The notes: generated by a model from the letters alone, not told the origin. A stretch of 64,000 nucleotides of DNA from Flavobacterium sp. (GCF_035299245.1 NZ_DATGWY010000019.1:42363-106362), one strand, 5' to 3'; numbered from the stretch's first letter, positions 9,761 through 63,705 are shown. Numbers and translations are program-made.

Positions 9761-9847
9761 TCCCGCTTTCCACTGCAATCTTTTTATTTTTGATTGCTCG
9801 TGCCTCGCACCAAAAATAAAAAGGATTTTCGTTGCAATCGGGGCTAG
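9761..9847 (+). repeat. Dispersed structured element, copy A (possible Flavo-1)
   Basis: TCCCGCTTTCC...GCAATCGGGGCTAG ends with an internal CTTTTTATTTTTG/CAAAAATAAAAAG stem. Confidence 0.8.
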
Positions 9848-10002
9848 GGCAAATACTTCAAAATTCAACATTCGTTAATCGAAATTCAAATTTTAGTTAC
9901 GAAAGTTGGAAATGAAAACAAGGAATAAAGAACAACGAACTCTGAATGATGAAGTTTAAAACATACAACTTATAACATACAACTCACAACAAACTAACTA
10001 CA

Positions 10003-12855
10003 ATGCCAAAAGACAACTCCATTAAATCGATTTTAATCATTGGTTCGGGTCCAATTGTAATCGGGCAAGCGTGCGAATTTGACTATGCGGGTTCGCAATC
10101 AGCTCGTTCCATTCGCGAAGAAGGAATTGAAGTCATTCTCATCAATTCCAATCCGGCTACCATCATGACCGATCCATCCATGGCCGATCATGTGTATTTA
10201 AAACCATTAACTACAAAATCCATCATTGAAATCCTCAAAGCACATCCGCAAATTGATGCTGTTTTGCCTACAATGGGCGGACAAACCGCTTTGAATTTGT
10301 GCCTCGAAGCCGATGAAAAAGGCATTTGGCAAGATTTCGGTGTGCGATTAATAGGAGTAGACATCAACGCCATCAACATTACCGAAGACCGCGAGCAATT
10401 CAAGCAATTGCTTCAAAAAATAGGCGTTCCAACAGCGCCAGCCAAAACGGCTACTTCTTTCTTAAAAGGAAAAGAAATTGCGCAAGAATTTGGTTTTCCA
10501 TTAGTTATCCGACCTTCGTTTACTTTGGGCGGAACCGGAGCAGCTTTTGTACACAGAAAAGAAGATTTCGACGAGTTGCTTACGCGCGGTTTAGAAGCTT
10601 CTCCTATACATGAAGTCTTAATTGATAAGGCTTTGTTGGGTTGGAAAGAATACGAATTGGAATTGTTGCGCGATCAAAACGACAACGTGGTCATCATTTG
10701 CTCCATCGAAAATATGGATCCAATGGGAATTCATACCGGTGATTCCATCACGGTTGCGCCAGCGATGACTTTATCGGATACCACGTTCCAAAAAATGCGA
10801 GACATGGCAATTTTGATGATGCGTTCCATCGGTAATTTTGCCGGAGGTTGTAACGTACAATTTGCCGTTTCACCCGATGAAAAAGAAGACATCGTAGCCA
10901 TCGAAATCAATCCACGTGTGTCTCGTTCATCAGCTTTAGCATCCAAAGCAACGGGTTATCCTATTGCAAAAGTGGCTTCTAAATTAGCCTTAGGTTATAC
11001 TTTAGACGAACTCAACAATCAAATTACCAAATCGACTTCGGCTTTATTCGAACCAACTTTGGATTACGTTATCGTTAAAATCCCACGTTGGAACTTCGAC
11101 AAATTTGAAGGCGCTGACAGAACCTTAGGACTTCAAATGAAATCAGTGGGTGAAGTAATGGGAATTGGTCGTTCGTTTCAAGAAGCATTGCACAAAGCAA
11201 CCCAATCATTAGAAATCAAACGCAATGGTTTGGGCGCCGACGGAAAAGGATATAAAAATTACGAGCAAATCATAGAAAAACTCACCTTCGCAAGTTGGGA
11301 TAGAGTGTTTGTGATTTACGATGCCATTCAAATGGGAATTCCGCTGAGTCGCATCCACGAAATCACTAAAATTGACATGTGGTTCCTCAAACAATACGAA
11401 GAACTGTATTTCATTGAAAAAGAAATTTCACAATATAAAATTGATACACTTCCCAAAGAATTACTACTTGAAGCCAAACAAAAAGGCTACGGTGACCGTC
11501 AAATAGCGCACATGTTGGGCTGTTTGGAAAGTCAGGTGTACAAACTGCGCGACGAAATGAATATCAAACGCGTGTACAAATTAGTAGATACGTGTGCGGC
11601 CGAATTCAAAGCGCAAACGCCTTATTACTACTCGACTTTTGAAGCCGAAATCCAAACTGCCGATGGCAAACGATTTGTAGATAATGAAAGCAAAGTTACC
11701 GACAAGAAGAAAGTAGTCGTTTTAGGTTCGGGTCCGAATCGTATTGGGCAAGGAATTGAATTCGATTACTCTTGTGTTCACGGTGTTTTAGCAGCCAAAG
11801 AATGCGGTTACGAAACCATCATGATCAACTGTAATCCTGAAACGGTTTCGACCGATTTTGATACGGCTGATAAATTGTATTTCGAACCTGTTTTTTGGGA
11901 ACATATTTACGACATCATTCGCCATGAGAATCCGGAAGGAGTTATTGTTCAATTGGGCGGACAAACCGCATTGAAATTGGCAGAAAAATTATCGAAATAC
12001 GGAATCAAAATCCTCGGAACTTCGTTTGATGCCCTAGATTTAGCTGAAGATCGCGGACGATTTTCGGAATTGTTAACCGAACTTAAAATTCCATTTCCAC
12101 AGTTTGGTGTAGCCGAAAATGCTGACCAGGCGTCGGCTTTAGCCGACGTGCTAGATTTCCCATTGTTAGTTCGACCTTCTTATGTGTTGGGTGGACAAGG
12201 AATGAAAATCGTCATCAACAAGCAAGAGTTGGAAGAACACGTAATCGATTTATTAAAAAATATTCCCGGAAATAAATTACTACTCGATCATTATTTAGAT
12301 GGTGCAATTGAAGCCGAAGCCGACGCCATTTGCGATGGTGAAAACGTATACATCATCGGAATTATGGAACACATCGAACCGTGTGGAGTGCACTCAGGCG
12401 ATTCGAATGCGACATTACCACCTTTCAACTTAGGTGAATTCGTAATGCAACAAATCAAAGATCATACTAAGAAAATTGCTTTGGCATTGCGAACAGTTGG
12501 TTTAATCAACATTCAATTTGCTATTAAAGACGATATTGTGTACATCATTGAAGCCAATCCGAGAGCATCAAGAACAGTCCCTTTTATTGCTAAAGCGTAC
12601 GGTGAACCCTATGTCAATTATGCTACTAAAGTAATGTTAGGAGTGAATAAAGTAACTGATTTTACTTTCAATCCGAAGTTAAATGGATATGCAATCAAGC
12701 AACCGGTTTTCTCTTTTAGTAAATTCCCGAATGTGAATAAAGCACTCGGACCTGAAATGAAATCGACCGGTGAAAGCATACTGTTTATAGACGATTTAAA
12801 AGACGATGCATTCTACGAATTGTACAGCAGACGAAAAATGTATTTAAGTAAATAA
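10003..12855 (+). CDS. carB: Carbamoyl-phosphate synthase large subunit (950 aa, no C-terminal MGS-like domain)
   Basis: IIGSGPIVIGQACEFDY, two ATP-grasp units (EINPRVSRSS; EANPRASRT), LGSGPNRIGQGIEFDY. Confidence 0.96.
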   Translation: MPKDNSIKSILIIGSGPIVIGQACEFDYAGSQSARSIREEGIEVILINSNPATIMTDPSMADHVYLKPLTTKSIIEILKAHPQIDAVLPTMGGQTALNLCLEADEKGIWQDFGVRLIGVDINAINITEDREQFKQLLQKIGVPTAPAKTATSFLKGKEIAQEFGFPLVIRPSFTLGGTGAAFVHRKEDFDELLTRGLEASPIHEVLIDKALLGWKEYELELLRDQNDNVVIICSIENMDPMGIHTGDSITVAPAMTLSDTTFQKMRDMAILMMRSIGNFAGGCNVQFAVSPDEKEDIVAIEINPRVSRSSALASKATGYPIAKVASKLALGYTLDELNNQITKSTSALFEPTLDYVIVKIPRWNFDKFEGADRTLGLQMKSVGEVMGIGRSFQEALHKATQSLEIKRNGLGADGKGYKNYEQIIEKLTFASWDRVFVIYDAIQMGIPLSRIHEITKIDMWFLKQYEELYFIEKEISQYKIDTLPKELLLEAKQKGYGDRQIAHMLGCLESQVYKLRDEMNIKRVYKLVDTCAAEFKAQTPYYYSTFEAEIQTADGKRFVDNESKVTDKKKVVVLGSGPNRIGQGIEFDYSCVHGVLAAKECGYETIMINCNPETVSTDFDTADKLYFEPVFWEHIYDIIRHENPEGVIVQLGGQTALKLAEKLSKYGIKILGTSFDALDLAEDRGRFSELLTELKIPFPQFGVAENADQASALADVLDFPLLVRPSYVLGGQGMKIVINKQELEEHVIDLLKNIPGNKLLLDHYLDGAIEAEADAICDGENVYIIGIMEHIEPCGVHSGDSNATLPPFNLGEFVMQQIKDHTKKIALALRTVGLINIQFAIKDDIVYIIEANPRASRTVPFIAKAYGEPYVNYATKVMLGVNKVTDFTFNPKLNGYAIKQPVFSFSKFPNVNKALGPEMKSTGESILFIDDLKDDAFYELYSRRKMYLSK

Positions 12856-12859
12856 TGTT

Positions 12860-12890
12860 AAAAAAACGACCATTTATAGGTCGTTTTTTT
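12860..12890. terminator. Bidirectional intrinsic terminator
   Basis: AAAAAAACGACC..GGTCGTTTTTTT. Confidence 0.8.
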
Positions 12891-13779: not shown

Positions 13780-13892
13780 AGTAATTTTTTTAAACACCTA
13801 ATGTAACGAATAAAATGAAATTGTACCGTTTTCTTTATCAGTATTTTAACAATGGTTTATCCGTTTATTGTACTTTCGTGAAATTTTTAAAT

Positions 13893-13925
13893 AAAAAAAG
13901 CCTCTGCAATTACAGAGGCTTTTTT
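13893..13925. terminator. Intrinsic terminator for the 13945-17952 gene
   Basis: AAAAAAAGCCTCTG..CAGAGGCTTTTTT. Confidence 0.8.
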
Positions 13926-13944
13926 AGTGTTATTTTACATTGGA

Positions 13945-16900
13945 TTATCTTCCGATTACTAATTTGTGATTTTCAGTAAAATCTTCAGAAACCAACTGTA
14001 TGATGTATACTCCAGTAGCAAGCATGTCCAAAGAAATTTGACTTTCTGAACCGTTGATTTGGAATTGAGTAACTTGTTTTCCAGAACCTATTTCAAAAAC
14101 ACTTCCGGTTACAGATGTTGCGTTTTCATTCAGACGGATATTTACAAATCCGCTATTGGCTGGATTCGGATAGATTGAAGACACATTTCCATTGAATGAT
14201 GTAACACTCAATAAATTAGTTTGTGATTCAAAAGCACCGATGTCTCTTCTTCCGTCGAACACACCATTCCCGATTTGGTCGTTAAAGGTGTCAGCCATAT
14301 CTCCAGCATTGTACGCAGGACTGCCCGCTAACAAGGCGTGAGTTAGAGTCATTCCGCCATTATTTGCTAAAGGACCAACCAACGGGTCAACAGGAGTTGC
14401 ATCAGTACCTACTAAATCACCAGTTCCGGCTGTAAATGTTGTAGCAGTGGCTTTTCCGATTAAATTGTAACCGTTTGAGGTTAACGCTCCTGTTGTAGAT
14501 GAAACGTCAGTATCTGTAGTTGCTGTATTGGTTGCTACAATTGTATTTTTCAATGAAGGAATCGATGCGCTTTCATTAGCAATTCCACCGCCATTTACAG
14601 ATGTATTGTTGGCAATTGTTGATGCATTACTACTGAACACTGCATTAGAATATACGCCTCCGCCTTTAGTTGCAGAGGTATTTCCTGATACAGTAGATGT
14701 TAGTAAAGTAGCCGATCCCGTTTTTACGTGAATTCCGCCACCGTGTCCGCCAATTCCGTCTGAAATGTTATTTGAAATTGTAGATGAGTTAATAAAAACA
14801 TCTCCACCATTTACAAAAACTCCACCACCACCAAACAAAGCTCCAGCACCGCTTGCAGTATTGTTGTCAATTGTAACATTTGTAACGGTCATGGTGCTTC
14901 CTGTTTGATTCCACAATCCACCGCCTTCACGTCGTGCATCATTTCCTGAAACCATTCCGCCTACAATCGTTGTAGTTGTTACACCAGTAATATGAAGAGC
15001 TCCACCATTACCCGGACTCGGAGTTCCCGCAGTTCCATCGACATCGTTGTTGGTTAAGTTGGAGTTGGTAATATTTAATGTTCCGTTTACTACTTCAATA
15101 GCACCACCAGCGCGATTCGCCGAATTTGAGTCCAACGTTGAATTGTTGATGTTGATGGTTCCCGCTAAACCGAATACTCCACCACCTGAACCTGCCGTTC
15201 CAGTTGCATTGTTATTGGTTACAGTAGCATTGTTTAGGGTTAGCATTCCAGCATTATTGAATAAACCAGCTCCACCATCGTCAGCTGCATTACCTAAAGC
15301 TGTGTTTCCACTTACAACGGTATTGGTAACAGTCATCATGCCTGAACCATTCCATAATCCGCCACCTTCTAAACCGGCAGAGTTACTATTAACAGTTCCG
15401 CCTAAAATTGTTGCATTTCCGGCACCTGTTATGTGAAATCCACCACCATTTCCCGGAGAAGCAGCCGTTGATCCTAAAGCAACAACACCGGTTACGTTAT
15501 TATTTAGAGTGATGTTTGTTAAATTAGTAGTTGAACCAGCAGCGGCTTCAATTCCGCCACCTGCTCTGTTAGAGATATTTTCAGTTATAGCTGTACCATC
15601 GGCATTGAATGTACCTGCAAAGTTGAATACACCTCCACCAGAAGCACCACCAGTAATTGCTTTATTAGAGTTGATTGAACTTCCCATTACCGAAACAGTT
15701 CCAGCACTGATATAGATTCCACCACCACCTTCAGTAGGAGCAATTGAGCCTAAAGCAATATTTGTATTTAGAGCCGAATTATTCTGAATCGTTATTGTTC
15801 CGTTATTGGTGAAAATTCCACCACCATTGAGGTTTGCAGTGTTGTTATTTAAATTTGTTGCGTTTAAGGTAACCGAAGCTCCGTTATTTAAAAGTCCACC
15901 ACCAATTCCCAATGTACCACTTGCCATGTTATTAGCTACAACAGCATTTGAAACCATTAATGTACCCACTTGATTGTATAATCCACCACCACCGCTAGTT
16001 GCAGCATTTCCTGGAACCATGTTTCCGTTGATGGTTGTACCGTCTATGGTTAGCATTCCGGCACCATTCCATAATCCACCTCCTTGATTTCCTGCTGAAT
16101 TTCCATTAGCAGTTCCGCCAGTTACTGAAGCATTGGCAGTTCCGGTTAAGTGCAATCCGCCACCATTTCCTGGATTAGCAGCAGTTGATCCTAAAGCGAT
16201 TACCCCAGTTACGTTGTTATTCAATGCTACTCCAGTTAAATTGGTAGTAGAACCACTCGCTGCTTCAATTCCGCCACCAGCTCGGTTTGCAATATTCTGA
16301 CTGATAGATGTTCCATTGGCAGAGAAAGCTCCTCCAAAATTGAATATTCCACCACCAGAACCACCACCTGAAATTGCTGTATTACTGTTGATAGCACCAC
16401 CGATTACATTTACAGTGCCCGCAGCAACATAGATTCCGCCACCACCATCAGTTGGAGCCGTTGCGCCCATAGCTGTATTGGAGTTGATGGTAGAATTGTT
16501 GTCTATAGTGATTGTTCCGTTATTGGTATAGATTGCACCACCATTTAAGTTGGAAGCATTACTGTTTATTAAAGTATTATTGATAGTAACCGATGCGCCA
16601 TTATTTAAAAGTCCGCCACCATTACCTAAAGTTCCAGTTGTATCATTATCGTTTACAGTAGCATTGGATACATTTAATATTCCCACTTGATTGTAAAGTC
16701 CACCACCGCCACTAGTTGCAGCATTTCCAGAAACCATATTATTATTAATAGCAGTTCCAATTACGTTCATCGTTCCAGAGCCATTCCATAAACCTCCACC
16801 TTGATTTCCGGCCATATTATTGGTAACTGAACCTCCGTTTATAGTAGCATTTCCAGAACCTGTGATGTGAAATCCACCACCGTTTCCTGGAGCAGCTACA

Positions 16901-22833: not shown

Positions 22834-22893
22834 GTTGTAGATTTGAATTCAAATGTAATAAAATTTAATTTATTTCTGATGCAACGTGTTTTT

Positions 22894-23030
22894 CTAGCCC
22901 AGACAGTAGTGGAAATCCTTTTGCGTTGGAAGTTTGTTTTTTTCTTGGCATGGCAACGCGACCAACGAAAGCGCTTGCCATGGCTTAGAAAAAAGAACTG
23001 AAGCGCAAAAGATTGAAACGGATGGCTGGA
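22894..23030 (-). repeat. Dispersed structured element, copy B (long form)
   Basis: CTAGCCCAGACAG...GGATGGCTGGA ends with nested internal hairpins. Confidence 0.75.
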
Positions 23031-23088
23031 TGAGCTACAAAAAGAAAATAATTTCCAAAATCTAGTTTTTATTTTCAATCGAGAATAG

Positions 23089-29241: not shown

Positions 29242-29313
29242 CAGGTTTTTTCCTGTTAGGTATTTAATTGAAAAAGAGAGGAGCGAATCAGTTGGCTTCA
29301 TTGTATTCCTTGT

Positions 29314-29356
29314 TCCTGCTTTCCGCTTTGCATGGCATCGCGTCAATCAGGGCTAG
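29314..29356 (+). repeat. Dispersed structured element, copy C (short form)
   Basis: TCCTGCTTTCC...CAATCAGGGCTAG. Confidence 0.75.
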
Positions 29357-29478
29357 AAGGCCAACTTTTGGGCTTCTAAAATAATAGTTCTAACCCAACT
29401 ATTCTAAAATTGAAACAAAACCGTCGCAACAGCGACATACATACAAATTGATAAAATCCCTTTTTTGGGAAGTATACT

Positions 29479-31377
29479 ATGGAACAAAAAAAATTTGACC
29501 TAAATTCAATCATCGGGTTTGCCTTGATTTTTGGTATTGTAATGTGGATGATGTACAGCAACCAAAAAACAGCCGAAAAAGAACAACTCGAAAAAGCAAA
29601 ACAAGAAAAACTTCAAAAGCAACAAAAAGCCAAAACAGTTGCTGCCAAAGAAATCGTTACTATTGCTACCGATACTTCAGTATCAGACACTGCAAAAATC
29701 AAAAAACTACAAGCTACTTTAGGAACATTTGCTTATTCAGCAACTTTACCAACGGCAAAAGAGGGTGTAACTGTACTTGAAAATGATTTAGTAAAAATTT
29801 CGGTTTCTAACAAAGGTGGAGCTATTTCAGAAGTTACACTTAAAAAATACGACAAATTCAAAAAGAATTCGGGCGAATTGGTTTCGTTAATCAAAAACAA
29901 CAACGCCAATTTTAATCTTGAATTGCAAACTTCGGATAACCGAATCTTAAACACTAAAGACTTGTTTTTTGAACCCACTTTAACCAAAGTAGGAGCAGAT
30001 CAAATTCTTTCGATGAAATTAAAATCGGGTGCTAATGAGTTCTTAGAATACAAATACGTTCTAAAACAGGATAATTATATGCTTGATTTTGATGTGCGTT
30101 CACAAGGTTTAAGTAAAGCCGTGAATACTTCAAAACCAGCTAATTTGAACTGGGATTTGAAAACCTACCGCAACGAAAAAAGTATTTCCTACGAAAATCG
30201 TTATACCGAATCAGTTTTTGAATACGAAGATGGTAAAGACGATTACACAGGTCAAGGAACTGAGAAAGAAGAAAACCCAGAAAAGGTGACTTATGTTGCC
30301 TACAAACAACACTTGTTTACTACGGTTTTATTGACTAAAACTCCATTAGAAAAGGCATCCATCAAGTCATTTGATTTAGTAAAAGACGCCAAAAAAGATA
30401 CTATTTATACCAAACAATTCAAAACGGTTGCGCCTTTAACGTTTAACAACGGCGAATTGAACTATCAAATGAATTGGTATTTTGGGCCAGCCGATTATAA
30501 ATTATTAAGCAAATACGATCGCAATCTTGATGAAATTGTTTCGTTGGGATGGGGAATTTTTGGTTGGATCAACAAATTAATTTTCGTTCCGTTATTCGGA
30601 TTCTTAAGTTCGTTCATGGGATTAGGAATTGCAATTATTCTTTTCACTATTATTATCAAATTAGCAATGTCGCCTATTACTTTCAAATCGTTTTTATCTC
30701 AAGCGAAAATGAAAGTATTACGACCTGAAATTGCAGAATTAGGAGAGAAATTCGCAAAAGACCCAATGAAGAAACAACAAGAAACCATGAAGTTGTACAG
30801 TAAAGCTGGAGTAAATCCAATGGCTGGTTGTATTCCGGCATTGATTCAAATTCCGTTCATGTATGCTTCGTTTTTGTTCTTCCCAACTTCGGTTGATTTA
30901 AGACAAAAAGGTTTCCTTTGGGCTGACGATTTATCCTCATTTGATTCGGTATTGAAATTGCCATTTAACATTCCGCTTTATGGTGACCACATCAGTTTAT
31001 TTGCTTTGTTAGCATCAATCGCCATTTTCTTCTATATGAAAATGACTTCTGGAGATCAAGCTATGGCACAACCACCACAAGAAGGCATGCCTGATATGGC
31101 TAAAATCATGAAGATAATGATTTATTTGTCGCCAATCATGATGTTAATCTTCTTTAATAATTATGGTTCAGGTTTGAGTTTATACAACTTAATTTCCAAC
31201 TTAATCACTATTGGAATCATGATTGTTATTAAGAAGTATTTTATTGATAGTGAAAAAATACACGCTCAAATTCAAGAGAACAAAGCCAAACCCAAAACTG
31301 AAAGCAAGTTCCAAAAGAAAATGAGAGAGATGATGGAGCAAGCCGAAGCTCAAAAAGCACAACAGAAGAAAAAATAA
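29479..31377 (+). CDS. yidC: Membrane protein insertase YidC
   Basis: YFGP, LGWGIFGW, KMKVLRPEI, GVNPMAGCIP, FLWADDLS, GLSLY. Confidence 0.96.
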   Translation: MEQKKFDLNSIIGFALIFGIVMWMMYSNQKTAEKEQLEKAKQEKLQKQQKAKTVAAKEIVTIATDTSVSDTAKIKKLQATLGTFAYSATLPTAKEGVTVLENDLVKISVSNKGGAISEVTLKKYDKFKKNSGELVSLIKNNNANFNLELQTSDNRILNTKDLFFEPTLTKVGADQILSMKLKSGANEFLEYKYVLKQDNYMLDFDVRSQGLSKAVNTSKPANLNWDLKTYRNEKSISYENRYTESVFEYEDGKDDYTGQGTEKEENPEKVTYVAYKQHLFTTVLLTKTPLEKASIKSFDLVKDAKKDTIYTKQFKTVAPLTFNNGELNYQMNWYFGPADYKLLSKYDRNLDEIVSLGWGIFGWINKLIFVPLFGFLSSFMGLGIAIILFTIIIKLAMSPITFKSFLSQAKMKVLRPEIAELGEKFAKDPMKKQQETMKLYSKAGVNPMAGCIPALIQIPFMYASFLFFPTSVDLRQKGFLWADDLSSFDSVLKLPFNIPLYGDHISLFALLASIAIFFYMKMTSGDQAMAQPPQEGMPDMAKIMKIMIYLSPIMMLIFFNNYGSGLSLYNLISNLITIGIMIVIKKYFIDSEKIHAQIQENKAKPKTESKFQKKMREMMEQAEAQKAQQKKK

Positions 31378-31391
31378 TTAGCAGTATAAAA

Positions 31392-31425
31392 TAAAAAGTC
31401 CCGAGTAGTTTCGGGACTTTTTTTA
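31392..31425. terminator. Bidirectional intrinsic terminator
   Basis: AAAAAGTCCCGA..TCGGGACTTTTTT. Confidence 0.8.
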
Positions 31426-31446
31426 TGGAATAAAATTATTGATTTC

Positions 31447-32418
31447 TTAATCTAAATTAGGAAGAAGAACTCTATCAACCATGTGAATCATACCGTTGTA
31501 ACACTGAATGTCTTTAGTTGTAATGTTAGACAAACGATCATTCATATCAACAATTCTGAAATTTGCAGGCGTTGATTGAATTGAAAAAGGATCACCAGCA
31601 TACGTATTTACTGTTGCTCCATCTGTAAGAGATGATGAGAATGTATTAGCGGTAATCACAAAATGATACTTCAAAACTTGAGCCAATGTACTGTTTCCAA
31701 TAGCAGCTAAATTGGGTTGATTTAATTCTACTAATAAAGAAGAAAAAGCAGTATTCATTGGAGCAATCATTGTATACGGGCCATTGTTAACACTCGACAA
31801 TTCAGCTACAAAGTCAAATTGATCATTCGAAGCTAAAGCAGAAGAAAGAGTTGATAAATTAGGATTGGCTAAAATATGATCAATAATTGTTGGCAATTTA
31901 AGAACAGCATCCACTTTGTGAATTACTCCGTTAGATGCAAAAATATTTCCATTAGTGACAGAGGCAATGCCATTAATTTCTGTTTCACCATCTACGTTTC
32001 TGAAATACATACTCAAATTAGCAGAATTTGATGCAAACCCTGTAGCTTGTGATTTTATATAGGTATTAATTGGTAAATCTTCTAGCTTGATTTTTCCAAC
32101 AATAATATGATTTAAAAGGATTTGTCTCAATACACTTGTTGGAACTTCTTCGATTGTAGCAAAATCATTTTCAGCTAAAAAGTTTTCAAAAGCAGTATCC
32201 GTTGGAGCAAATAAAGTGAATGTTTCAGTTCCGCTTAAAGTTGAACTTAAATCGGTAATTTCAATCGCTTTTTGTAATGAGTCAAACTCGTTATTGTCGG
32301 AGATTAATCCGTTCAAAGTATCCTTTTTTGCATTAGCATCATCTTCCATATCACAAGATGTAAATACACTAATACTTACAAAAAGAATAAGTAAAATTCT
32401 ATTTTTTAGTAGGTTCAT
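31447..32418 (-). CDS. Fasciclin-domain lipoprotein (2 FAS1 domains)
   Basis: Lipobox FTSC; TLFAPTDTAF, HII, NGVIHKVDAVL; second domain NGMIHMVDRVL. Confidence 0.9.
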   Translation of the reverse strand: MNLLKNRILLILFVSISVFTSCDMEDDANAKKDTLNGLISDNNEFDSLQKAIEITDLSSTLSGTETFTLFAPTDTAFENFLAENDFATIEEVPTSVLRQILLNHIIVGKIKLEDLPINTYIKSQATGFASNSANLSMYFRNVDGETEINGIASVTNGNIFASNGVIHKVDAVLKLPTIIDHILANPNLSTLSSALASNDQFDFVAELSSVNNGPYTMIAPMNTAFSSLLVELNQPNLAAIGNSTLAQVLKYHFVITANTFSSSLTDGATVNTYAGDPFSIQSTPANFRIVDMNDRLSNITTKDIQCYNGMIHMVDRVLLPNLD

Positions 32419-42773: not shown

Positions 42774-42897
42774 ATTATTTATTTTAAAAATTTAAAGTTG
42801 TGCAAAGATACTTTTTGAGATAACGAATTCAAAGCGCGTTAACATTTCTGCGGATTTGCTATTTTTTGCACTAATTTTTTTTCAATACGATAATAAA

Positions 42898-42951
42898 CTA
42901 GCCCTGATGCAAGGGAATCCCGATTTTTATCGGGATGGAAAGGCAGCAGGA
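42898..42951 (-). repeat. Dispersed structured element, copy D
   Basis: CTAGCCCTGATGC...GCAGCAGGA; internal ATCCCGAT/ATCGGGAT palindrome. Confidence 0.75.
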
Positions 42952-43007
42952 AAATGGATGGCAAGAAGGCCCGAGCCATTCGCTTCCCAAATCGCTAAAA
43001 AAAAGTT

Positions 43008-43143: not shown

Positions 43144-44337
43144 ATGAATATACACGAATATCAAGGGAAAGAAATTTTAGCGAAATATGGTGTACGCGTT
43201 CAACGTGGAATTGTAGCTAATAATCCGGTTGAGGCAGTTGCTGCAGCCAAACAATTGACTACAGAAACAGGTACACAATGGTACGTAATCAAAGCTCAAA
43301 TTCACGCAGGTGGAAGAGGAAAAGGTGGTGGCGTAAAATTGGCTAAAAACCTAGAGCAAGTAACCGAAATTTCAGAACAAATTATTGGTATGCAATTAAT
43401 CACGCCACAAACTCCACCAGAAGGAAAAACGGTGCACAAAGTGTTGATTGCAGAAGATGTATATTACCCAGGAGAAAGTGAAACTTCTGAATTTTACATG
43501 TCGGTTTTATTGAACAGAGCGACAGGAAGAAACATGATTATGTATTCTACTGAAGGTGGAATGGATATTGAAGAAGTAGCAGAACACACTCCGCATTTAA
43601 TTTTCACAGAAGAAATTGATCCACAAGTGGGACTACAAGGTTTTCAAGCACGACGAGTTGCTTTTAACTTAGGTCTTTCTGGAAATGCGTTCAAAGAAAT
43701 GGTGAAATTTGTTGAATCGTTGTACAACGCCTATATTGGTTCTGATGCTTCGATGTTTGAGATTAATCCAGTACTTAAAACTTCGGATAACAAAATTATG
43801 GCCGTTGATGCCAAAGTAAATATTGATGATAATGCATTGTACCGTCAGCCGAAATACGCTGAAATGCGTGACGTTAGAGAAGAAAATCCAATTGAAGTGG
43901 AAGCTAAAGAAGCCGGATTGAACTATGTTGACCTTGACGGAACTGTAGGTTGTATGGTAAACGGTGCTGGTTTGGCAATGGCAACAATGGATTTGATTAA
44001 ATACGCCGGTTTTGAACCAGCTAACTTCTTAGACGTGGGTGGAACAGCCGATGCAAAACGTGTAGAATTAGCGTTTAGAATCATTTTAAAAGATCCGAAT
44101 GTAAAAGCCATTCTGATTAACATTTTTGGTGGAATCGTTCGTTGCGACCGTGTAGCTCAGGGTGTTGTGGATGCATACAAAAACATGGGTGACGCGATTC
44201 AAGTGCCAATCATTGTACGTTTACAAGGAACTAATGCTGAAATTGCAAAAGAATTAATTGACAATTCAGGTATGCCTATCTTATCTGCGGTTCAGTTTCA
44301 AGAAGCAGCTGATCAAGTGCAAAAAGCATTGTCTTAA
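43144..44337 (+). CDS. sucC: Succinyl-CoA synthetase beta subunit
   Basis: [47 protein letters not shown] at 43144. Confidence 0.97.
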
Positions 44338-44400
44338 TGAATTGAAACGGACTTATGAATTGAAACGGACTTATGAATTGAAACGGACTTTAGTCCGTTT
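44337..44400. repeat. Three exact 18-bp tandem repeats plus a palindrome
   Basis: ATGAATTGAAACGGACTT x3 (44337-44390), then AAACGGACT-TT-AGTCCGTTT. Confidence 0.9.
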
Positions 44401-44409
44401 ATAAATAAA

Positions 44410-44441
44410 TATAAATCCCGAGTTTGTGCTCGGGATTTTTT
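44410..44441. terminator. Bidirectional intrinsic terminator
   Basis: AAATCCCGAG..CTCGGGATTTTT. Confidence 0.75.
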
Positions 44442-44838
44442 ATTTCATTTTCTCAGCAAAAGCAATTACATGTCCATCCAAATCCGAAAAATAAAAAGCG
44501 GTGTCGCCCCAATTGCGCGGTTCAATTTCGCTGATTATAGTGGTATTTAGTTTTTTTACATTTTCATATTCTACCTTAAGATTTTCAACAATAAAGTACA
44601 ATTCGCAACGCGGAATTCCGTTTCCTAAGTTCGGATGCGGTAGTGCTGGAGTGATGATTTTTGCAATTCCGTCGTTAGGCATTAATCCGAGTTTACACTG
44701 ATTATTTATAATGAATTCAGTCATTCCGGGCACATTCAAATCGGCTGATTTTCTGAAAAGTTGCTCATAAAATTGAGTGCTTTTTTGCTGGTCTTTTACA
44801 TAAAGTATGAATTCGGTATGTTTAATGTGTGTAATCAT
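44440..44838 (-). CDS. VOC/glyoxalase family protein
   Basis: LYVKDQQKSTQFYE, ELYFIV, WGDTAFYFSDLDGH. Confidence 0.85.
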   Translation of the reverse strand: MITHIKHTEFILYVKDQQKSTQFYEQLFRKSADLNVPGMTEFIINNQCKLGLMPNDGIAKIITPALPHPNLGNGIPRCELYFIVENLKVEYENVKKLNTTIISEIEPRNWGDTAFYFSDLDGHVIAFAEKMK

Positions 44839-51440: not shown

Positions 51441-51461
51441 GTTCAAATTTTTAGTAGCTAA

Positions 51462-51596
51462 TCCAGCTTTTCATTCCAAGTTTTTTACTTCAAACTATTT
51501 TTGTAAGCTGCGAAAAGAGCTTCCGTTGGTCGCTTTTTCACAGCAACAAAAATTGGTTTTCACTTTCAAAAAGCTTTCCATTGCAATCTGGGCTAA
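51462..51596 (+). repeat. Dispersed structured element, copy H (long form)
   Basis: TCCAGCTTT...GCAATCTGGGCTAA; internal loop shares CGTTGGTCGC with copy B. Confidence 0.75.
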
Positions 51597-51612
51597 TTCA
51601 GAAAGCGGTCGG

Positions 51613-51743
51613 CAGAACGCAGAAGGCAGAAAGTGCAACTGAAATACAAAACGTCTAAACTAGCCCCGATTGAAGCGGCACGCAGTAAAGCGGAAAGCGG
51701 GACAAGGCGTTATTAGAACTTTTATACGTCTGCTTCAAATAAA
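51613..51743 (-). repeat. Direct repeat 1 flanking the P-type ATPase (contains element copy E, 51660-51702)
   Basis: Aligns with 54342-54480. Confidence 0.85.
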
Positions 51744-54341: not shown

Positions 54342-54480
54342 CAGAACGCAGAACACAGAAGGCAGAAAGTACTACTGAAATACAAAACGTCTAAACTAGC
54401 CCCGATTGGAGGAAGCACCGCGTGCGACGGAAAGCGGGACGAGGCGTTATTAGAATTACTAAATTGCTGCTTCAAATAAA
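54342..54480 (-). repeat. Direct repeat 2 flanking the P-type ATPase (contains element copy F, 54396-54439)
   Basis: Aligns with 51613-51743. Confidence 0.85.
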
Positions 54481-56185: not shown

Positions 56186-56188
56186 TTT

Positions 56189-56274
56189 AACCGCAAAGTT
56201 CGCAAGGTATTTACGCAAGGTTCGCAATGATTATATAGTGTTCTTCGTGTTTTTGCTTTGCGAACTTTGCGGTT
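56189..56274. repeat. 9-nt-period inverted repeat (AACCGCAAAGTTCGCAA / TTGCGAACTTTGCGGTT)
   Basis: Perfect 17-bp arms between convergent guaB and purB; probably also acts as the terminator. Confidence 0.8.
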
Positions 56275-56281
56275 GAAAATT

Positions 56282-57625: not shown

Positions 57626-57658
57626 GAGTTGTGTTGTTGTTTTGAAGGTGCAAATTTA
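57626..57658 (-). promoter_or_regulatory. purB -7 element and leader with CAACACAAC
   Basis: TAAATTTG (57658-57651) and CAACACAAC (57636-57628) on the minus strand. Confidence 0.7.
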
Positions 57659-57767
57659 GTTATTAGTTGTAAGTTGTGAGTTATAAGTTGTGATTTTTTT
57701 TAATCTATAAAGGTTCTCGGCTATAATCTAAAAGTGAATTGAAAATCGATGACCTACAACCAAAAAC

Positions 57768-58466: not shown

Positions 58467-58533
58467 TTTCAAAAATAAATAAAAAAACCTCAAATGAACA
58501 ATCAGATGAGGTTTTGAAATGGTGTTTTTAATG

Positions 58534-59830: not shown

Positions 59831-59948
59831 ACCTAGTGTTTTTGCGAAGATAAGAAATATAAATTTCTACTTTACTCTACTTTTGTTAAGAAAATTAAAA
59901 AAGGGATGCTTTTTTTTGAATTTTAGTAAGAAATTCTAATTTTGAGCC

Positions 59949-60608: not shown

Positions 60609-60615
60609 TTTATTT

Positions 60616-61383
60616 CTATTTCTTTCTCAGCACCTTATATTCCTCATAACAGCCACTAATCGCATCCATGATTTGAAGATCATTAGCGGTTTCAATAAAG
60701 GTTTGAGAATAATTACAGTGTTGAAGTATCTCTGGAATTTCGTCTTTGTCAATTCCTAAAAGTGCCGCCAATGTTTCGCGATCAAATTTGGTTTCTAAGG
60801 CATTTCGAACCGTGTCGTCTTTACGCATTTCCTTCAGCTTTCGGAGTTCTTTGGGTTTGTTTCCGAAGAAATTATACAGCATATCAGCTGGATTGAAAAT
60901 GGAGTTCATCACTCTCGAAAAGGCTTTTGGTGACTGCTCTCCAACTTCATACGATTTTGATAAACCCGAAATGCTGTACGAATAATTCTCTTTATATGGA
61001 ATCAATTTGCTATCCACTTCCAAATAACCAGTAAGCATGTATTTACGTACTAAAACTTCTTCCAAAGCGATGGCTTTTTCGGTTAAAAGGATTTTAGTGG
61101 TTTCGTTTTTAACCCAGTCATTGGTGACTCTCACCCGCAATGATTGATATCCGATGCAAGTAATGTGAATCGTATCGTTCACACTGGCTTCAATTTCAAA
61201 TACACCTTTACTGTTCGAAGTCGACCCTTTTACTTTGTTGATGTTAATTACATTCACATTGGATAGTGGAAGTAAATTAACGCTGTTTAAAATGGTTCCA
61301 GAAACTTTAGTTTTGAGCGAAGTGTCTTGCGCAAAAGTAGTGTTTAGGGTAAGTAGAAGTAGGAAAGCTAGTAGATATCTCAT
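60616..61383 (-). CDS. Carboxypeptidase-regulatory-like domain protein
   Basis: Signal peptide; SGTILN..PLSNVNV..GSTSN.KG.F, CIGY, LEEVLV. Confidence 0.75.
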   Translation of the reverse strand: MRYLLAFLLLLTLNTTFAQDTSLKTKVSGTILNSVNLLPLSNVNVININKVKGSTSNSKGVFEIEASVNDTIHITCIGYQSLRVRVTNDWVKNETTKILLTEKAIALEEVLVRKYMLTGYLEVDSKLIPYKENYSYSISGLSKSYEVGEQSPKAFSRVMNSIFNPADMLYNFFGNKPKELRKLKEMRKDDTVRNALETKFDRETLAALLGIDKDEIPEILQHCNYSQTFIETANDLQIMDAISGCYEEYKVLRKK

Positions 61384-61463
61384 TGTCAGTTTTGAATGGT
61401 TAAAAGTAGTAAAGTCAACGGATATTTTATCTCAATTATAAGAAAATTAACAAAATGATGTAA

Positions 61464-61502
61464 AAAAACTCCAATCAAAATAAATTCAGATTGGAGTTTT
61501 TA
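61464..61502. terminator. Intrinsic terminator of the helicase gene
   Basis: AAAAAACTCCAATC..GATTGGAGTTTTT. Confidence 0.75.
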
Positions 61503-61528
61503 TTCATTAGAATATGAAGCTTTTACAA

Positions 61529-63439
61529 CTAACTTCTTCTTGGTCTTCTATTTTTTGCAGCTTCGAATGAACGACCTGCCGGACGATCAGAATTTCCTTC
61601 CGAACGACGTGGCGCTCTTTCTTCTCTTTGAAACGAACCTGGTTCTCTTTTTGGAGCCGAACTTTTAAATCCGCCTTCACGACTTGAACCCGAACGATCG
61701 CTTCTTGGTCCGAAACTACCGCCTCGTGAACCCGAACTTCTTTCGCCATCACGTCTTCCGCCAAAACCACCCGAACTTCTGCGTTCACCGCCCGAATTTC
61801 TTCCGTTATGGTCACGTCGTTCACGACTTCCGCCGTCATTTTTAGAAATTTCAACGTTGATACGTCTTCCGTTTAAGTCGAAACCGTTTAAGATTTCCAT
61901 TACTTTTTCAGTATGTTCTCCATCGGTATTAAAGAAAGAGAAACCTTCTTTAACATCTACTTTGAATACATCATCACGACCCAAATCAAGCGTTTCTTTT
62001 AAGAAATCTTTCAATTGCATCCAATCGAAATCGTCTCTCGCTCCAATGTTGATGAAATAACGAACCGGATCGCCTGCTCTAATTTCTCTTGGTTCAGACG
62101 AACTTCTTTCTGATTTTTCACCCGATAAATCGCGTTTCTTTTTATAGTACGAAATGAATCGATTGAACTCAACCGAGACCATTTTCTTGATCAATTCTTC
62201 TTTGGTTAAACCATCCAAAACTTCATTAATAGCCGGAAGATAGTTGTCAATTTCGTGATCTACTTCTGTATCTTTAATTTTGTTGGCTAAGTGTAACAAC
62301 TGAATTTCGCAAATTTCGATACCACTTGGGATGGTTTTCTCTTCAAATTTTTGTTTGATGATTTTTTCAATCGAATGGATTTTACGAATTTCACTTTTGG
62401 TAATAATTACTATCGAAGTTCCTAATTTACCAGCACGACCAGTACGTCCTGAACGGTGATTGTAGGTTTCAATTTCATCAGGTAATTGATAATTCACTAC
62501 GTGTGTAATGTTATCAACGTCAATTCCACGTGCCGCAACATCGGTCGCAACCAACATTTGAATTTGTCTACCTCTGAACGATTTCATCACACCATCACGT
62601 TGCGCTTGCGATAAATCGCCGTGTAACGCAGCAGCACTGTAACCGTCTTCAATTAATTTTTCAGCAACGGCTTGCGTGTCTCTTTTCGTTCTACAAAAAA
62701 CTACTGAGAAGATATCTGGGTTAGCATCCGCCAAACGTTTCAGAGCTTCATAACGATCGCGAGCGTTTACACAATAAAATTCGTGTGAAACAGTAGCTGA
62801 ACCTGAATTTTTAGTTCCAACCGTAATTTCGGCTGGATCGGCCATGAATTTCTTAGCAATACGCGCTACTTCAGCAGGCATTGTTGCCGAGAATAACCAT
62901 GTTCTTTTTTCGTCTGGAGTATCCGAAAGAATCGAAACGATGTCTTCATAAAATCCCATGTTCAACATCTCATCGGCTTCGTCCAGAATACAATAGTTGA
63001 TGTTTTTAATGTTCACAAGACCACGATTGATCATGTCTTGCATTCTTCCTGGTGTAGCCACAATAATTTGTGCTCCACGTTTTACCTCTCGGGCTTGTTC
63101 TGTTATGCTTGCACCACCGTAAACTGCAACTGTATGTAATCCTTTTACATATTTTGAGTAAAGTTTAATCTCATTTGTGATTTGTAAGCAAAGTTCGCGC
63201 GTTGGGGATAAAATTAACGCTTGCGTGCTTCGGTCTTCAGCATCAATTTTTTGAATCAGCGGAAAACCAAAAGCTGCTGTTTTCCCTGTACCTGTTTGTG
63301 CTAAAGCCACTAAGTCTGTTTCTTGTTCTAATAAAACCGGAATCGCTTTTTCTTGCACTTCTGACGGATTCTCAAATCCTAGATCTTTGATCGCCAGCAG
63401 TAACGATTCATTCAGACCTAATTGTTCAAATTTATTCAT
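61529..63439 (-). CDS. DEAD-box RNA helicase (DeaD/CsdA-like, DbpA-type domain, RG/RS-rich tail)
   Basis: AQTGTGKT, PTREL, TPGR, DEAD, SAT, DVAARGID, HRSGRTGRAG. Confidence 0.95.
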   Translation of the reverse strand: MNKFEQLGLNESLLLAIKDLGFENPSEVQEKAIPVLLEQETDLVALAQTGTGKTAAFGFPLIQKIDAEDRSTQALILSPTRELCLQITNEIKLYSKYVKGLHTVAVYGGASITEQAREVKRGAQIIVATPGRMQDMINRGLVNIKNINYCILDEADEMLNMGFYEDIVSILSDTPDEKRTWLFSATMPAEVARIAKKFMADPAEITVGTKNSGSATVSHEFYCVNARDRYEALKRLADANPDIFSVVFCRTKRDTQAVAEKLIEDGYSAAALHGDLSQAQRDGVMKSFRGRQIQMLVATDVAARGIDVDNITHVVNYQLPDEIETYNHRSGRTGRAGKLGTSIVIITKSEIRKIHSIEKIIKQKFEEKTIPSGIEICEIQLLHLANKIKDTEVDHEIDNYLPAINEVLDGLTKEELIKKMVSVEFNRFISYYKKKRDLSGEKSERSSSEPREIRAGDPVRYFINIGARDDFDWMQLKDFLKETLDLGRDDVFKVDVKEGFSFFNTDGEHTEKVMEILNGFDLNGRRINVEISKNDGGSRERRDHNGRNSGGERRSSGGFGGRRDGERSSGSRGGSFGPRSDRSGSSREGGFKSSAPKREPGSFQREERAPRRSEGNSDRPAGRSFEAAKNRRPRRS

Positions 63440-63540
63440 AAAGTATTTTAAATTGGGTGCAAAGGTAGTCTTTAAATACCATATAAACTAATTTGTTAGT
63501 TGCTGGTAATTAGAAAGTTAACTTTTGCTTAACAAAGTGG

Positions 63541-63570
63541 CTGAGTGACTGAGCAGCTGATTGACTGAGT
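63541..63570. repeat. 8-nt-period repeat (CTGAGT..)
   Basis: Reverse complement of the 50446-50480 array. Confidence 0.6.
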
Positions 63571-63640
63571 TTCTGTTAAATTTTAAGATCTTTTTGTGGG
63601 ATTTTTAGGAGCAGAAAAGTTGTCGTTCTTACCACAGTTG

Positions 63641-63705
63641 TCCCGCTTTCCGCGCTACAAGCCTACTTGTCGTCAGGCTAGGTAGCTAGCTTCAATCGGG
63701 GCTAA
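63641..63705 (+). repeat. Dispersed structured element, copy G
   Basis: TCCCGCTTTCC...TTCAATCGGGGCTAA with an internal AGCCT/AGGCT hairpin. Confidence 0.8.

What the first reader, a model, noticed from the sequence alone, without database searches (positions are those of the whole stretch)
9761..63705. Eight copies of a dispersed structured element whose terminal stem shows compensatory base changes
Seen: copies at 9761-9847(+), 22894-23030(-), 29314-29356(+), 42898-42951(-), 51462-51596(+), 51660-51702(-), 54396-54439(-) and 63641-63705(+), all intergenic. Their ends pair with a constant pattern: T.G, C-G, C-G, variable pair, G-C, C.T mismatch, then two pairs. The variable pair is C-G in A/E/F/G, A-T in B/H and T-A in C/D. 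The last two pairs are TT/AA in most copies, CA/TG in B and TG/CA in D. A YTAG tetramer sits at the foot of the stem on the opposite strand. Orientation does not track the flanking genes. Knowledge: REP elements moved by HUH (Y1/RAYT) transposases have a tetramer at the foot of an imperfect hairpin. From memory, this resembles Rfam Flavo-1, whose function is unresolved. Inference: a non-autonomous element recognised as a ssDNA or RNA hairpin.
Basis: partly seen in the sequence, partly recalled or inferred. Interest (0 to 1): 0.7.

Follow-up and report, generated by a model that had tools for sequence, protein, structure and literature searches.

The report
Known Flavo-1 hairpin repeat, REP-like
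The eight elements are copies of Flavo-1, a folded intergenic repeat of flavobacteria catalogued in 2010 whose function is still unknown; in this genome it behaves like a dispersed DNA hairpin repeat that is gained, lost and then kept in shape by selection, not like a small-RNA gene.

Summary
All eight copies are real. They belong to Rfam family RF01705 (Flavo-1): four pass the curated threshold, three score below it, and one was found only by my own scan. The element is therefore already known, and this scan has noted it more than 100 times on other DNA.

The genome holds at least 119 copies, and 117 of them are intergenic. They fall into short (36-41 nt), middle and constant-length (126-131 nt) classes.

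The fold is strongly supported. Free stem positions are about 95% Watson-Crick with all four pair types. At one orthologous locus in eight species, 25 of 46 pairs carry compensated changes.

Additions here:
- An outer helix (5' AGC with 3' GCT) that also co-varies.
- Two 3'-end architectures.
- An A-run next to the 3' end (65% of copies against 13.5% background).
- No target duplication.
- Filled and empty orthologous sites.
- A 70-75% bias of the Rfam strand to lie antisense to flanking genes, with no replication-strand bias.

The RAYT link is not supported. RAYT genes are flanked by other palindromes, and RAYT-free relatives keep more than 50 copies.

My best reading is a REP-like DNA hairpin repeat mobilised in trans by an unidentified enzyme.

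The parts
9752..9847 (-). Copy A. Middle-length form with type I end: core, then a 5-nt bulge AAATA, then GCTTC.
   Evidence: RF01705 at 74.5 bits. The DNA fold recovers the basal helices and the outer AGC:GCT helix, z = -3.2. The site is filled in 4 and empty in 7 of the related species read.
22894..23038 (+). Copy B. Constant-length 'long' form (131-nt core) with the conserved apex GCGACCAAC-GAAAGC. Type I end.
   Evidence: RF01705 at 63 bits. The fold is a rod-like hairpin, z = -5.8. It is a member of the long-form alignment (46 census copies; 44 aligned), in which 30 of 36 pairs are compensated.
29280..29356 (-). Copy C. Short form with type II end: about 30-nt 3' extension, then GCTCC.
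   Evidence: RF01705 at 37.3 bits, below threshold. Sequence read. Single-sequence fold is not significant, z = -1.0.
42898..42986 (+). Copy D. Divergent core whose apex is a TCCCGA...TCGGGA hairpin. Type II end (AAAATGGATGGCAAGAAGGCCCGAGCCATTC, then GCTTC).
   Evidence: RF01705 at 25.3 bits, below threshold. Sequence read. The fold recovers the outer helix, z = -2.5.
51454..51596 (-). Copy E. Constant-length 'long' form, type I end. It forms a head-to-head doublet with copy F, 74 nt away.
   Evidence: RF01705 at 49.3 bits. Census. Doublet seen. Fold z = -3.3.
51660..51736 (+). Copy F. Short form (37-nt core), type II end.
   Evidence: RF01705 at 44.3 bits. Census. The single-sequence DNA fold is not better than shuffles, z = +0.4, so its structure rests on family covariation.
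54396..54473 (+). Copy G. Short form (38-nt core), type II end.
   Evidence: No Rfam hit at E<=10. Found by the pairing-aware scan. Sequence read. It is 94% identical to copies elsewhere in the genome.
63608..63705 (-). Copy H. Middle-length form (59-nt core), type II end.
   Evidence: RF01705 at 30.9 bits, below threshold. Census. Sequence read. The fold recovers the basal helices.

Best explanation
The elements are members of the known Flavo-1 family (RF01705).

In this genome the family works as a REP/BIME-like, DNA-level dispersed hairpin repeat and not as a small-RNA gene.

Anatomy. A conserved basal module, 5'-YTAGC / CCNG / A / NN / GNA / GY / GNA ..., pairs with ... GNA / RC / GNA / NN / G / CNGG. 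A bulge or a 30-nt extension follows, and then GCTNC. This module clamps a freely exchangeable apical hairpin.

Proposed mechanism. The element folds as a single strand, or extrudes as a cruciform. It is copied into new intergenic sites without a target duplication, usually beside an A/T run just downstream of a gene or its terminator. The enzyme acts in trans and is not the RAYT of these genomes. Once inserted, a copy is kept folded by selection for very long times.

Shown: family membership, the fold, gain and loss at orthologous sites, absence of a target duplication, the A-run and gene-end position, the orientation bias, and the lack of a RAYT link.

Inferred: that the folded form is DNA rather than RNA, the ssDNA-type insertion mechanism, and the existence of a trans-acting enzyme.
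For: Membership:
- Four window copies and 60 genome copies exceed the curated score.

Fold:
- 110 sites were found with no pairing imposed, against 1 in the control.
- The variable pair is A-T 39, C-G 39, T-A 24, G-C 3, and 500 of 550 free positions are Watson-Crick.
- Long subfamily: 30 of 36 pairs compensated, and 92% of cells paired against 69.5% (maximum 71.8%) in shuffles.
- New outer helix AGC:GCT co-varies to GCC:GGC in 5 copies and AAC:GTT in 1 copy, and is recovered by folding.

DNA-level hints:
- G.U pairs are equally frequent on both strands (188 against 199).
- Wobble pairs make up only about 2% of the free positions.
- Where a terminator-like site is recognisable it lies between the gene and the element in 32 cases and after the element in 2.
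- No flank is conserved beyond about 10 nt on either side in the long and middle forms, so there is no promoter of its own; short type II copies add a conserved 3' extension of about 30 nt.
- In F. psychrophilum arrays, 8 sampled copies are silent, or transcribed only as part of an mRNA, on either strand (PMC9723704 text; supplement).

Gain and loss:
- Filled and empty orthologous sites were seen at three loci.
- In one case the element end GAAGCTAA replaces the last codons and the stop of a gene.

Insertion signature:
- No target duplication.
- 106 of 119 copies end in the GCTNC motif at two discrete offsets, followed by an A-run of >=4 in 65% against 13.5% background.
- 13 copies abut a terminator-like hairpin's T-tract exactly.

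Long retention:
- Eight species carry the same long copy at one locus, with 81% column identity and 25 of 46 pairs compensated.
Against: - No mobilising enzyme was found, and no recurrent neighbour gene.
- No identical copies exist. Nearest-copy identity is mostly 70-90%, so there is no sign of recent transposition.
- Selection that keeps the fold at fixed loci fits a host function better than a purely selfish element.
- The orientation bias follows transcription (56:19; 66:25 within 200 nt of a stop) and not replication (50:39 by GC skew; 12:11 and 9:6 in a complete relative).
- That bias is not explained by T-run supply, which is 49% on the sense strand. An RNA-level effect is therefore not excluded.
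- In F. psychrophilum three of eight sampled copies lie inside 3' or intra-operon transcripts.
- Short copies do not fold better than shuffled sequence under DNA parameters.
Confidence: 0.5

Rival explanations
1. A cis-acting structured RNA inside mRNAs. The reverse complement of the Rfam strand, read through from the upstream gene, forms a long rod. The rod would end, stabilise or process the transcript, as an exonuclease barrier or an RNase III site, as proposed for REP and Correia elements.
For: - 70-75% of copies have the Rfam strand antisense to the flanking gene, and the bias follows transcription, not replication.
- Long copies sit a median 36 nt after the stop, many at 2-20 nt.
- 26 gene-end cases lie <=30 nt from the stop, none with a terminator-like site before the element and 2 with one after it.
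- In F. psychrophilum, copies 0001, 0003 and 0006 lie antisense inside 3' or intra-operon transcripts expressed at log2 of about 9-10.
- The fold is kept by selection at fixed loci.
Against: - 25-30% of copies are in the other orientation, and 15 of 111 classified copies lie between divergent genes.
- Terminator-like sites lie before the element 32 times and after it 2 times.
- No U-run follows the rod on either strand.
- G.U pairs show no strand preference.
- The conserved G.A-lined loops lie on the strand that is mostly not transcribed.
- The published transcriptome found hits in sense, in antisense and outside transcripts.
Confidence: 0.25
2. A REP or REPIN family moved by the genome's RAYT (Y1/HUH) transposase.
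For: - A conserved YTAG lies 5' of an imperfect hairpin.
- Copy number is high and the copies are extragenic.
- There is no target duplication.
- A RAYT gene exists in the genome (NF047646, 108 bits).
- Among 16 genomes of other families in the order, all 3 with Flavo-1 also have a RAYT-like hit, and 12 of 13 without Flavo-1 lack one.
Against: - The RAYT of this genome is flanked by inverted copies of a different palindrome, AAAGTCTCCTGACTTTG.
- RAYTs of G023, G011, G039 and G016 each have their own flanking palindromes and no Flavo-1 flank.
- G020 (56 copies, complete genome), G021 (45), G018 (21) and G022 (12) have no Y1 hit at E<=1e-5.
- RAYT-rich G004, G009 and G019 have only 4-11 copies.
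- Only 2 inverted doublets were found.
Confidence: 0.07
3. A stand-alone small regulatory RNA gene, which is how Rfam types it (Gene; sRNA).
For: - Rfam lists it as an sRNA.
- Covariation is strong.
- A few F. psychrophilum copies are expressed on the Rfam strand, for example 0004 and 0005 at log2 of about 8-10.
Against: - There are more than 100 diverged copies per genome.
- There is no conserved promoter or terminator.
- The apical half varies from 0 to about 100 nt.
- Several sampled F. psychrophilum copies sit at array background, about 3.9-5.
- The original paper rated it only 'y' for RNA and 'n' for cis-regulatory.
Confidence: 0.05
4. A recombination or landing site. The folded element would mark the border of exchangeable DNA (attC-like) or would itself be a target for other hairpin repeats.
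For: - The apex of many copies is occupied by hairpins that resemble RAYT-flanking palindromes. Examples are TCCCGA..TCGGGA, as beside the G011 RAYT, and CCTGACATTGCG, as beside the G000 RAYT.
- At locus L020 several relatives carry 0.5-1.5 kb of extra DNA on the TAGC side.
- One copy lies in a variable region next to a highly conserved tRNA-like stretch where synteny breaks.
Against: - Copies are dispersed singly and not in arrays.
- No integrase or recurrent neighbour was found.
- Most loci examined keep the same two flanking genes.
- The link to synteny breaks was not tested against a control.
Confidence: 0.08
5. A classical MITE moved by a DDE transposase through its terminal inverted repeats.
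For: The constant 126-131 nt length of 46 copies, with inverted ends, resembles ERIC or Correia-type MITEs.
Against: - No direct repeat flanks the element at any offset or length of 2-5 nt beyond shuffled expectation.
- Compensatory changes between the arms are not expected for double-stranded recognition of inverted repeats.
- No related autonomous IS was seen next to any copy.
Confidence: 0.03

Closest known systems
Flavo-1 RNA motif, Rfam RF01705 (Weinberg et al. 2010, PMC2864571)
   Same: It is the same family. The consensus, structure and taxon match. Four window copies and 60 genome copies score over the curated threshold. All 24 sampled species of the genus have it.
   Different: - The Rfam model covers only the 76-position basal and upper stem.
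- It misses about half of the copies counted here: the long 126-131 nt forms and the short forms with the 3' extension.
- It does not include the outer AGC:GCT helix or the terminal GCTNC motif.
REP/BIME and REPIN elements with RAYT transposases (Nunvar 2010; Bertels and Rainey 2011; Ton-Hoang 2012; recalled from knowledge)
   Same: - High-copy extragenic imperfect hairpins with a conserved tetranucleotide (here YTAG) at the foot.
- No target duplication.
- Compensatory stem changes.
- Long vertical persistence.
   Different: - Much longer and modular, at 36-131 nt with internal GNA/GNA loops.
- Mostly single copies and not doublets.
- Not the repeats that flank the RAYT genes.
- Abundant in RAYT-free genomes.
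CGTC-tagged palindromic repeats (Di Nocera et al. 2013, PMC3733652)
   Same: These are tagged palindromic repeats, also reported in Bacteroidetes, for which no dedicated transposase could be found even though RAYT genes are present.
   Different: - The tag and stem sequences differ.
- CGTC repeats are 20-40 bp simple stem-loops and mostly head-to-head dimers.
- Flavo-1 is longer, bulged and mostly single.
IS200/IS605-derived hairpin MITEs and the ssDNA transposition model (IS608; recalled from knowledge; PMC6006769 in the library)
   Same: - Insertion without a duplication, next to a short preferred sequence.
- Folded single-strand ends.
- Strand-specific anatomy.
   Different: - No strong replication-strand bias.
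- No TnpA in several copy-rich genomes.
- One hairpin spans the whole element, instead of two subterminal hairpins.
Correia and ERIC-type MITEs (recalled from knowledge)
   Same: The long form is a roughly 130-nt, constant-length rod that is often co-transcribed with neighbouring genes.
   Different: There is no TA or other target duplication. The arms co-vary rather than keeping a fixed inverted-repeat sequence.

Membership tests
Rfam RF01705 Flavo-1 | Covariance-model score at or above the gathering score of 42 bits | tested here: met
   Four of the eight window copies score 44.3-74.5 bits. Three score 25-37 bits. One has no hit at E<=10. In the whole genome 60 copies are over the cut-off.
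Rfam RF01705 Flavo-1 | Conserved UAGCC at the 5' foot, the bulged basal helices, and restriction to Bacteroidota/Flavobacteriia | tested here: met
   See the alignments to the model. All 24 same-genus genomes have it, and 3 of 16 genomes from other families of the order; the 14 control genomes had no match in that search and none over the curated cut-off in any search.
REP/REPIN-RAYT system | The RAYT gene is flanked by inverted copies of the repeat | tested here: not met
   RAYT flanks in G000, G023, G011, G039 and G016 carry other palindromes. The only Flavo-1 hit near a RAYT is a single copy about 1.2 kb away in L017.
REP/REPIN-RAYT system | Repeat abundance depends on presence of the cognate RAYT | tested here: not met
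   G020, G021, G018 and G022 have 12-57 copies and no Y1 hit. G004, G009 and G019 have RAYTs but only 4-11 copies.
REP/REPIN-RAYT system | Predominantly inverted doublets (REPINs) | tested here: not met
   Only 2 pairs lie closer than 500 nt. Among 15 pairs under 5 kb the orientations are 5 '-+', 5 '++' and 5 '+-'.
REP/REPIN-RAYT system | Short extragenic imperfect palindrome with a conserved tetranucleotide at the foot | tested here: met
   YTAG lies 5' of the stem. 117 of 119 copies lie outside ORFs.
DDE-type MITE | Target-site duplication flanking terminal inverted repeats | tested here: not met
   No direct repeat of 2-5 nt at any offset exceeds shuffled flanks.
IS200/IS605-type ssDNA element | Orientation bias with respect to replication (lagging-strand template) | tested here: not met
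   50:39 against local GC skew in G000. In the complete relative G020 the two skew domains give 12:11 and 9:6. The skew signal is noisy, so this is a weak test.
IS200/IS605-type ssDNA element | Insertion 3' of a short specific target, without duplication | tested here: inconclusive
   There is no duplication. The A-run beside the 3' end is enriched, 65% against 13.5%. Of three filled/empty comparisons, two show a pre-existing T-run and one does not.
Intrinsic terminator | G+C-rich hairpin followed directly by a U-run on the transcribed strand | tested here: not met
   The run next to the element is A on the Rfam strand. On the other strand it precedes the hairpin.
Stand-alone sRNA gene | Own promoter and terminator, and a discrete transcript on a constant strand | tested here: inconclusive
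   No flank is conserved beyond about 10 nt, apart from the roughly 30-nt 3' extension of short type II copies. Published arrays of a related species show silent, sense or antisense signal.
Integron attC site | Arrays of sites separating cassettes, next to an integron integrase | tested here: not met
   Copies are dispersed, about one per 30 kb, with no recurrent neighbour protein. An integrase was not searched for.

The most novel reading that the evidence does not exclude
Flavo-1 may be neither an sRNA nor a RAYT-dependent REP. It could be a distinct class of modular DNA hairpin element. Its quasi-two-fold-symmetric, G.A-lined basal clamp would be recognised by a still unknown dimeric protein. 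In the canonical middle-length copies both arms read GATTGNAGCGGAAA 5' to 3'. The element would insert without duplication beside A/T runs at gene ends. It would then be domesticated: kept folded by purifying selection at the same locus across species that are only about 80% identical. Its apex would serve as a landing pad for other hairpin repeats.
Probability: 0.25. Interest if true: 0.6.

Novelty: already known. Interest (0 to 1): 0.3.

Why it matters
Flavo-1 is one of the most abundant orphan entries of Rfam. It is annotated as an 'sRNA' in every flavobacterial genome, although nobody knows what it does.

If it is shown to be a REP-like DNA repeat, independent of RAYT and kept in shape by selection at fixed loci, three things follow:
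- A widespread annotation would be corrected.
- A well-defined bait would be available for finding the protein that recognises it: the symmetric, G.A-lined basal clamp with the outer helix and the terminal GCTNC motif.
- Bacteroidota would gain a counterpart to the REP/BIME biology of proteobacteria.

For this particular finding the value is modest. It rediscovers a known family that this scan has already met many times.

Tried and rejected
- RAYT link. The RAYT was searched in the own genome and in 40 relatives, and the flanks were read. The RAYTs have their own palindromes, so the link is rejected.
- Target duplication. All offsets and lengths of 2-5 nt were tested against shuffled flanks. 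None was found.
- Recurrent neighbour gene. An all-against-all BLAST of 224 neighbour proteins found nothing.
- Strand-specific wobble pairs. G.U pairs number 188 on one strand and 199 on the other, so this is uninformative.
- Replication-strand bias. None was detected in the own genome or in the complete relative G020. The skew is noisy.
- T-run supply as the cause of the gene-orientation bias. T-runs and A-runs are equally common on the sense strand (49%), and A-run adjacency is the same in both orientations. Rejected.
- The 30-nt 3' extension as an independent element into which Flavo-1 inserted. Every true instance of the extension is preceded by a Flavo-1 hairpin. Rejected.
- The short ATG-led frame in that extension. 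The ATG is not conserved. Rejected.
- Phage copies. BLAST of two copies against 50,697 phage records gave no match.
- Locus L023, tried for the TAGC-side boundary. It is not syntenic in relatives, so it was not usable.
- Literature. No paper in the library assigns a function or classifies Flavo-1 as a REP.


Full report
**Identity.** A scan of the window against Rfam gives four matches to RF01705 (Flavo-1) above its curated score of 42 bits. They are 9755-9849(-) at 74.5 bits, 22892-23036(+) at 63, 51456-51598(-) at 49.3 and 51658-51708(+) at 44.3. A permissive scan adds 29308-29358(-) at 37.3, 63635-63707(-) at 30.9 and 42896-42957(+) at 25.3. The eighth copy, 54396-54439, has no Rfam hit but has the same architecture. 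Flavo-1 was defined by Weinberg et al. 2010 (PMC2864571). The only functional look I found is the F. psychrophilum transcriptome. It reports 128 copies lying 'indistinctly in sense or antisense' of transcribed regions, many of them untranscribed, and no clue to function (PMC9723704). This scan has already noted Flavo-1-type repeats in at least 69 other genomes.

**Check of the observation.** The YTAG at the foot is the conserved UAGCC of the Rfam consensus.

**Census.** The genome is 3.53 Mb in 23 contigs with 35% G+C. Rfam's model finds 60 copies over threshold and 88 at E<=1, with only 150 of about 1,075 candidates scored. My pairing-aware pattern scan finds 159 sites against 12 in the reversed genome. 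Of these, 119 have the proper 5' tag. A later look showed that further divergent copies were missed, so 119 is a lower bound. The lengths fall into three classes:
- Short cores of 36-41 nt: 23 copies.
- A broad middle class.
- A constant-length class of 126-131 nt: 46 copies. The Rfam model scores these poorly.

Only 2 of 119 copies lie inside my crude ORF calls.

**Structure.** A scan that fixes only the conserved letters and leaves the pairing free finds 110 sites, against 1 in the control. The variable outer pair is A-T 39, C-G 39, T-A 24 and G-C 3. The next two pairs are 105 and 106 of 110 Watson-Crick, with TT/AA, TA/TA, CA/TG and TG/CA all present. Overall 500 of 550 free positions are Watson-Crick, 10 are G.T and 3 are A.C.

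For the long class, RNAalifold on a MAFFT alignment of the long class (44 sequences aligned) predicts a rod of 36 pairs. Thirty of these pairs carry changes on both sides. Of all cells, 92.3% are paired, against 69.5% (maximum 71.8%) when the 3' partners are shuffled. The rod has a conserved apex, AAAAAGCGACCAACGGAAGCTNTTTTT.

Three structural points are not part of the Rfam model:
1. The 5' AGC of the YTAGC tag pairs with a 3' GCT across a 3-5 nt A-rich bulge. This helix co-varies: GCC:GGC in five copies and AAC:GTT in one. Folding recovers it. A variant family with a GGG/CCC basal stem has GCGT:ACGC instead.
2. 106 of 119 copies end in this GCT+NC motif. It lies either 4-6 nt from the core (60 copies, 'type I') or 28-32 nt from it (43 copies, 'type II'). 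Type II copies carry a conserved extension such as AAAATGGATTACAAGAAAGCCCAAGCCTTTC.
3. The two arms of the canonical stem have the same consensus read 5' to 3', GAUUGNAGCGGAAA (the consensus line). The duplex is therefore quasi-two-fold symmetric, with GNA/GNA internal loops on the Rfam strand. These are potential sheared G.A pairs, which is my inference. Copy by copy the arms differ while the pairing holds. Pairing is therefore what is conserved, not a direct repeat.

Single-sequence folding is significant for long and middle copies (z from -3.2 to -5.8) but not for the short ones (z from +0.4 to -1.0). The fold of the short forms rests on covariation.

**Where the copies sit.**
- 75 copies lie between co-directional genes, 21 between convergent genes and 15 between divergent genes.
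- Long copies sit a median 36 nt after the upstream stop. Several are at 2-20 nt, so that the stop codon lies in the element's own end.
- The Rfam strand is antisense to the flanking genes in 56 of 75 tandem cases. It is antisense in 66 of 91 cases within 200 nt of a stop (p = 2e-5).
- The bias is not a replication effect. Orientation against local GC skew is 50:39, about what the gene-strand bias predicts. In a complete relative the two skew domains give 12:11 and 9:6. The skew is noisy, so this is a weak test.
- The supply of T-runs does not explain the bias either. T-runs make up 49% of the T-runs and A-runs counted on the sense strand, and A-run adjacency is equal in both orientations.
- Where a terminator-like site can be recognised on the sense strand, it lies between the gene and the element in 32 cases and after the element in 2.
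- In 13 copies a terminator-like hairpin's T-tract abuts the terminal motif exactly.
- An A-run of at least four follows the terminal motif in 65% of copies, against 13.5% at random intergenic positions.

**Gain, loss and retention.**
- At the locus of window copy A the element is present in 4 species. It is absent in 7 whose intergenic region is only 91-125 nt.
- At a second locus a long copy sits right after the stop of the same gene in eight species. Three further species have a middle-type copy there and two have none.
- At a third locus two species are filled and two are empty. The protein ends ...KRKVK in the empty species and ...KRRS or ...KRS in the filled ones. The element end GAAGCTAA has replaced the last codons and supplies Ser-stop.
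- No target duplication is detectable.
- In two of the three comparisons a T-run already stood at the insertion point. In the third it did not.

The eight orthologous long copies are 81% identical by column. This is about as conserved as the flanking coding DNA, while the neighbouring intergenic DNA did not align by eye. Of 46 predicted pairs, 25 show changes on both sides, and all four Watson-Crick pairs occur at the variable position. Either the fold is under purifying selection at fixed loci, or copies are repeatedly overwritten by other copies.

Within the genome there are no identical copies. Nearest-copy identity is mostly 70-90%. Nothing points to a recent burst.

**Who moves it.**
- The genome has one clear RAYT (NF047646, 108 bits). 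It is flanked by inverted copies of a different 20-nt palindrome that has only 4-5 copies in the genome.
- RAYTs of four relatives each have their own flanking palindromes. Across six RAYT loci there is only one unrelated Flavo-1 hit.
- Copy number and RAYT presence do not go together within the genus. G020, G021, G018 and G022 have 12-57 copies and no Y1 hit. G004, G009 and G019 have RAYTs and 4-11 copies.
- No protein family recurs beside the copies.
- The RAYT-type palindromes do resemble the apical inserts of some Flavo-1 copies, namely TCCCGA..TCGGGA and CCTGACATTGCG. This suggests that the apex is exchangeable or acts as a landing site.

**RNA or DNA.** The points for DNA are:
- There is no conserved promoter or terminator.
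- Wobble use is equal and low on both strands.
- Copies lie downstream of recognisable terminators.
- Copies occur in every context and in both orientations.
- In the published arrays, eight sampled copies are at background (0008). Or they are low on the Rfam strand under an expressed antisense mRNA segment (0001, 0003, 0006). Or they are simply part of a 5' or independent segment (0004, 0005).

The points for RNA are:
- The orientation bias is tied to transcription.
- Some long copies hug the stop codon.
- Some copies lie inside 3' UTRs.
- The fold is selected at fixed loci.

**Verdict.** The best reading, at about 0.5, is a REP/BIME-like DNA hairpin repeat that spreads without a duplication to sites beside A/T runs at gene ends, through an unidentified trans-acting activity, and is then retained by selection. 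A cis-acting RNA role for the complement strand inside mRNAs is the main rival, at about 0.25. The RAYT/REPIN reading, the sRNA-gene reading and the DDE-MITE reading are disfavoured by direct tests.

Noticed in passing
window 9703-9727: A second, unrelated mini-palindrome (GTCATTGCGAG..CGAAGCAATC, 25 nt). It is an insertion relative to the orthologous site in G023. It has about 22-36 copies in the genome, often directly abuts the 3' end of Flavo-1 copies, and also occurs inside the apex of 8 middle-length copies.
   Followed up: partly
G000 contig C20, about 29693-30298 (L001:1183-1788, minus strand): A single REP-associated tyrosine transposase gene (201 aa, NF047646 at 108 bits). It is flanked by inverted 20-nt repeats, AAAGTCTCCTGACTTTGAGC and GCGCAAAGTCAGGAGACATT. 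RAYTs in relatives each have their own species-specific flanking palindrome.
   Followed up: yes
window 51597-51650; also the 5' flanks of copies at C4:205235, C5:83247 and C14:367974: Short tandem arrays rich in WCTG / CAGAA lie next to the TAGC end. Seven of 119 copies have four or more WCTG in the 70-nt 5' flank, against 0.4% of random intergenic windows. This recalls the minisatellites beside Flavo-1 noted earlier in another genome.
   Followed up: partly
window 44328-44476, 13814-14009 and 31368-31452: Clusters of sub-threshold Rfam hits to unrelated leader and sRNA families (Leu_leader at 36.6 bits, MicC, Phe_leader and others) on both strands. These are probably strong bidirectional terminator hairpins between genes and not those RNAs.
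   Followed up: no
L023:1040-1150 (G000 contig C14, about 280640-280750): A stretch of about 105 nt that is 88-100% identical across the genus, presumably a tRNA or other RNA gene. Next to it is a region that is not syntenic in relatives and contains a long Flavo-1 copy.
   Followed up: no
whole window: Eight copies in 64 kb is about 3.7 times the genome-wide density of roughly one per 30 kb.
   Followed up: no
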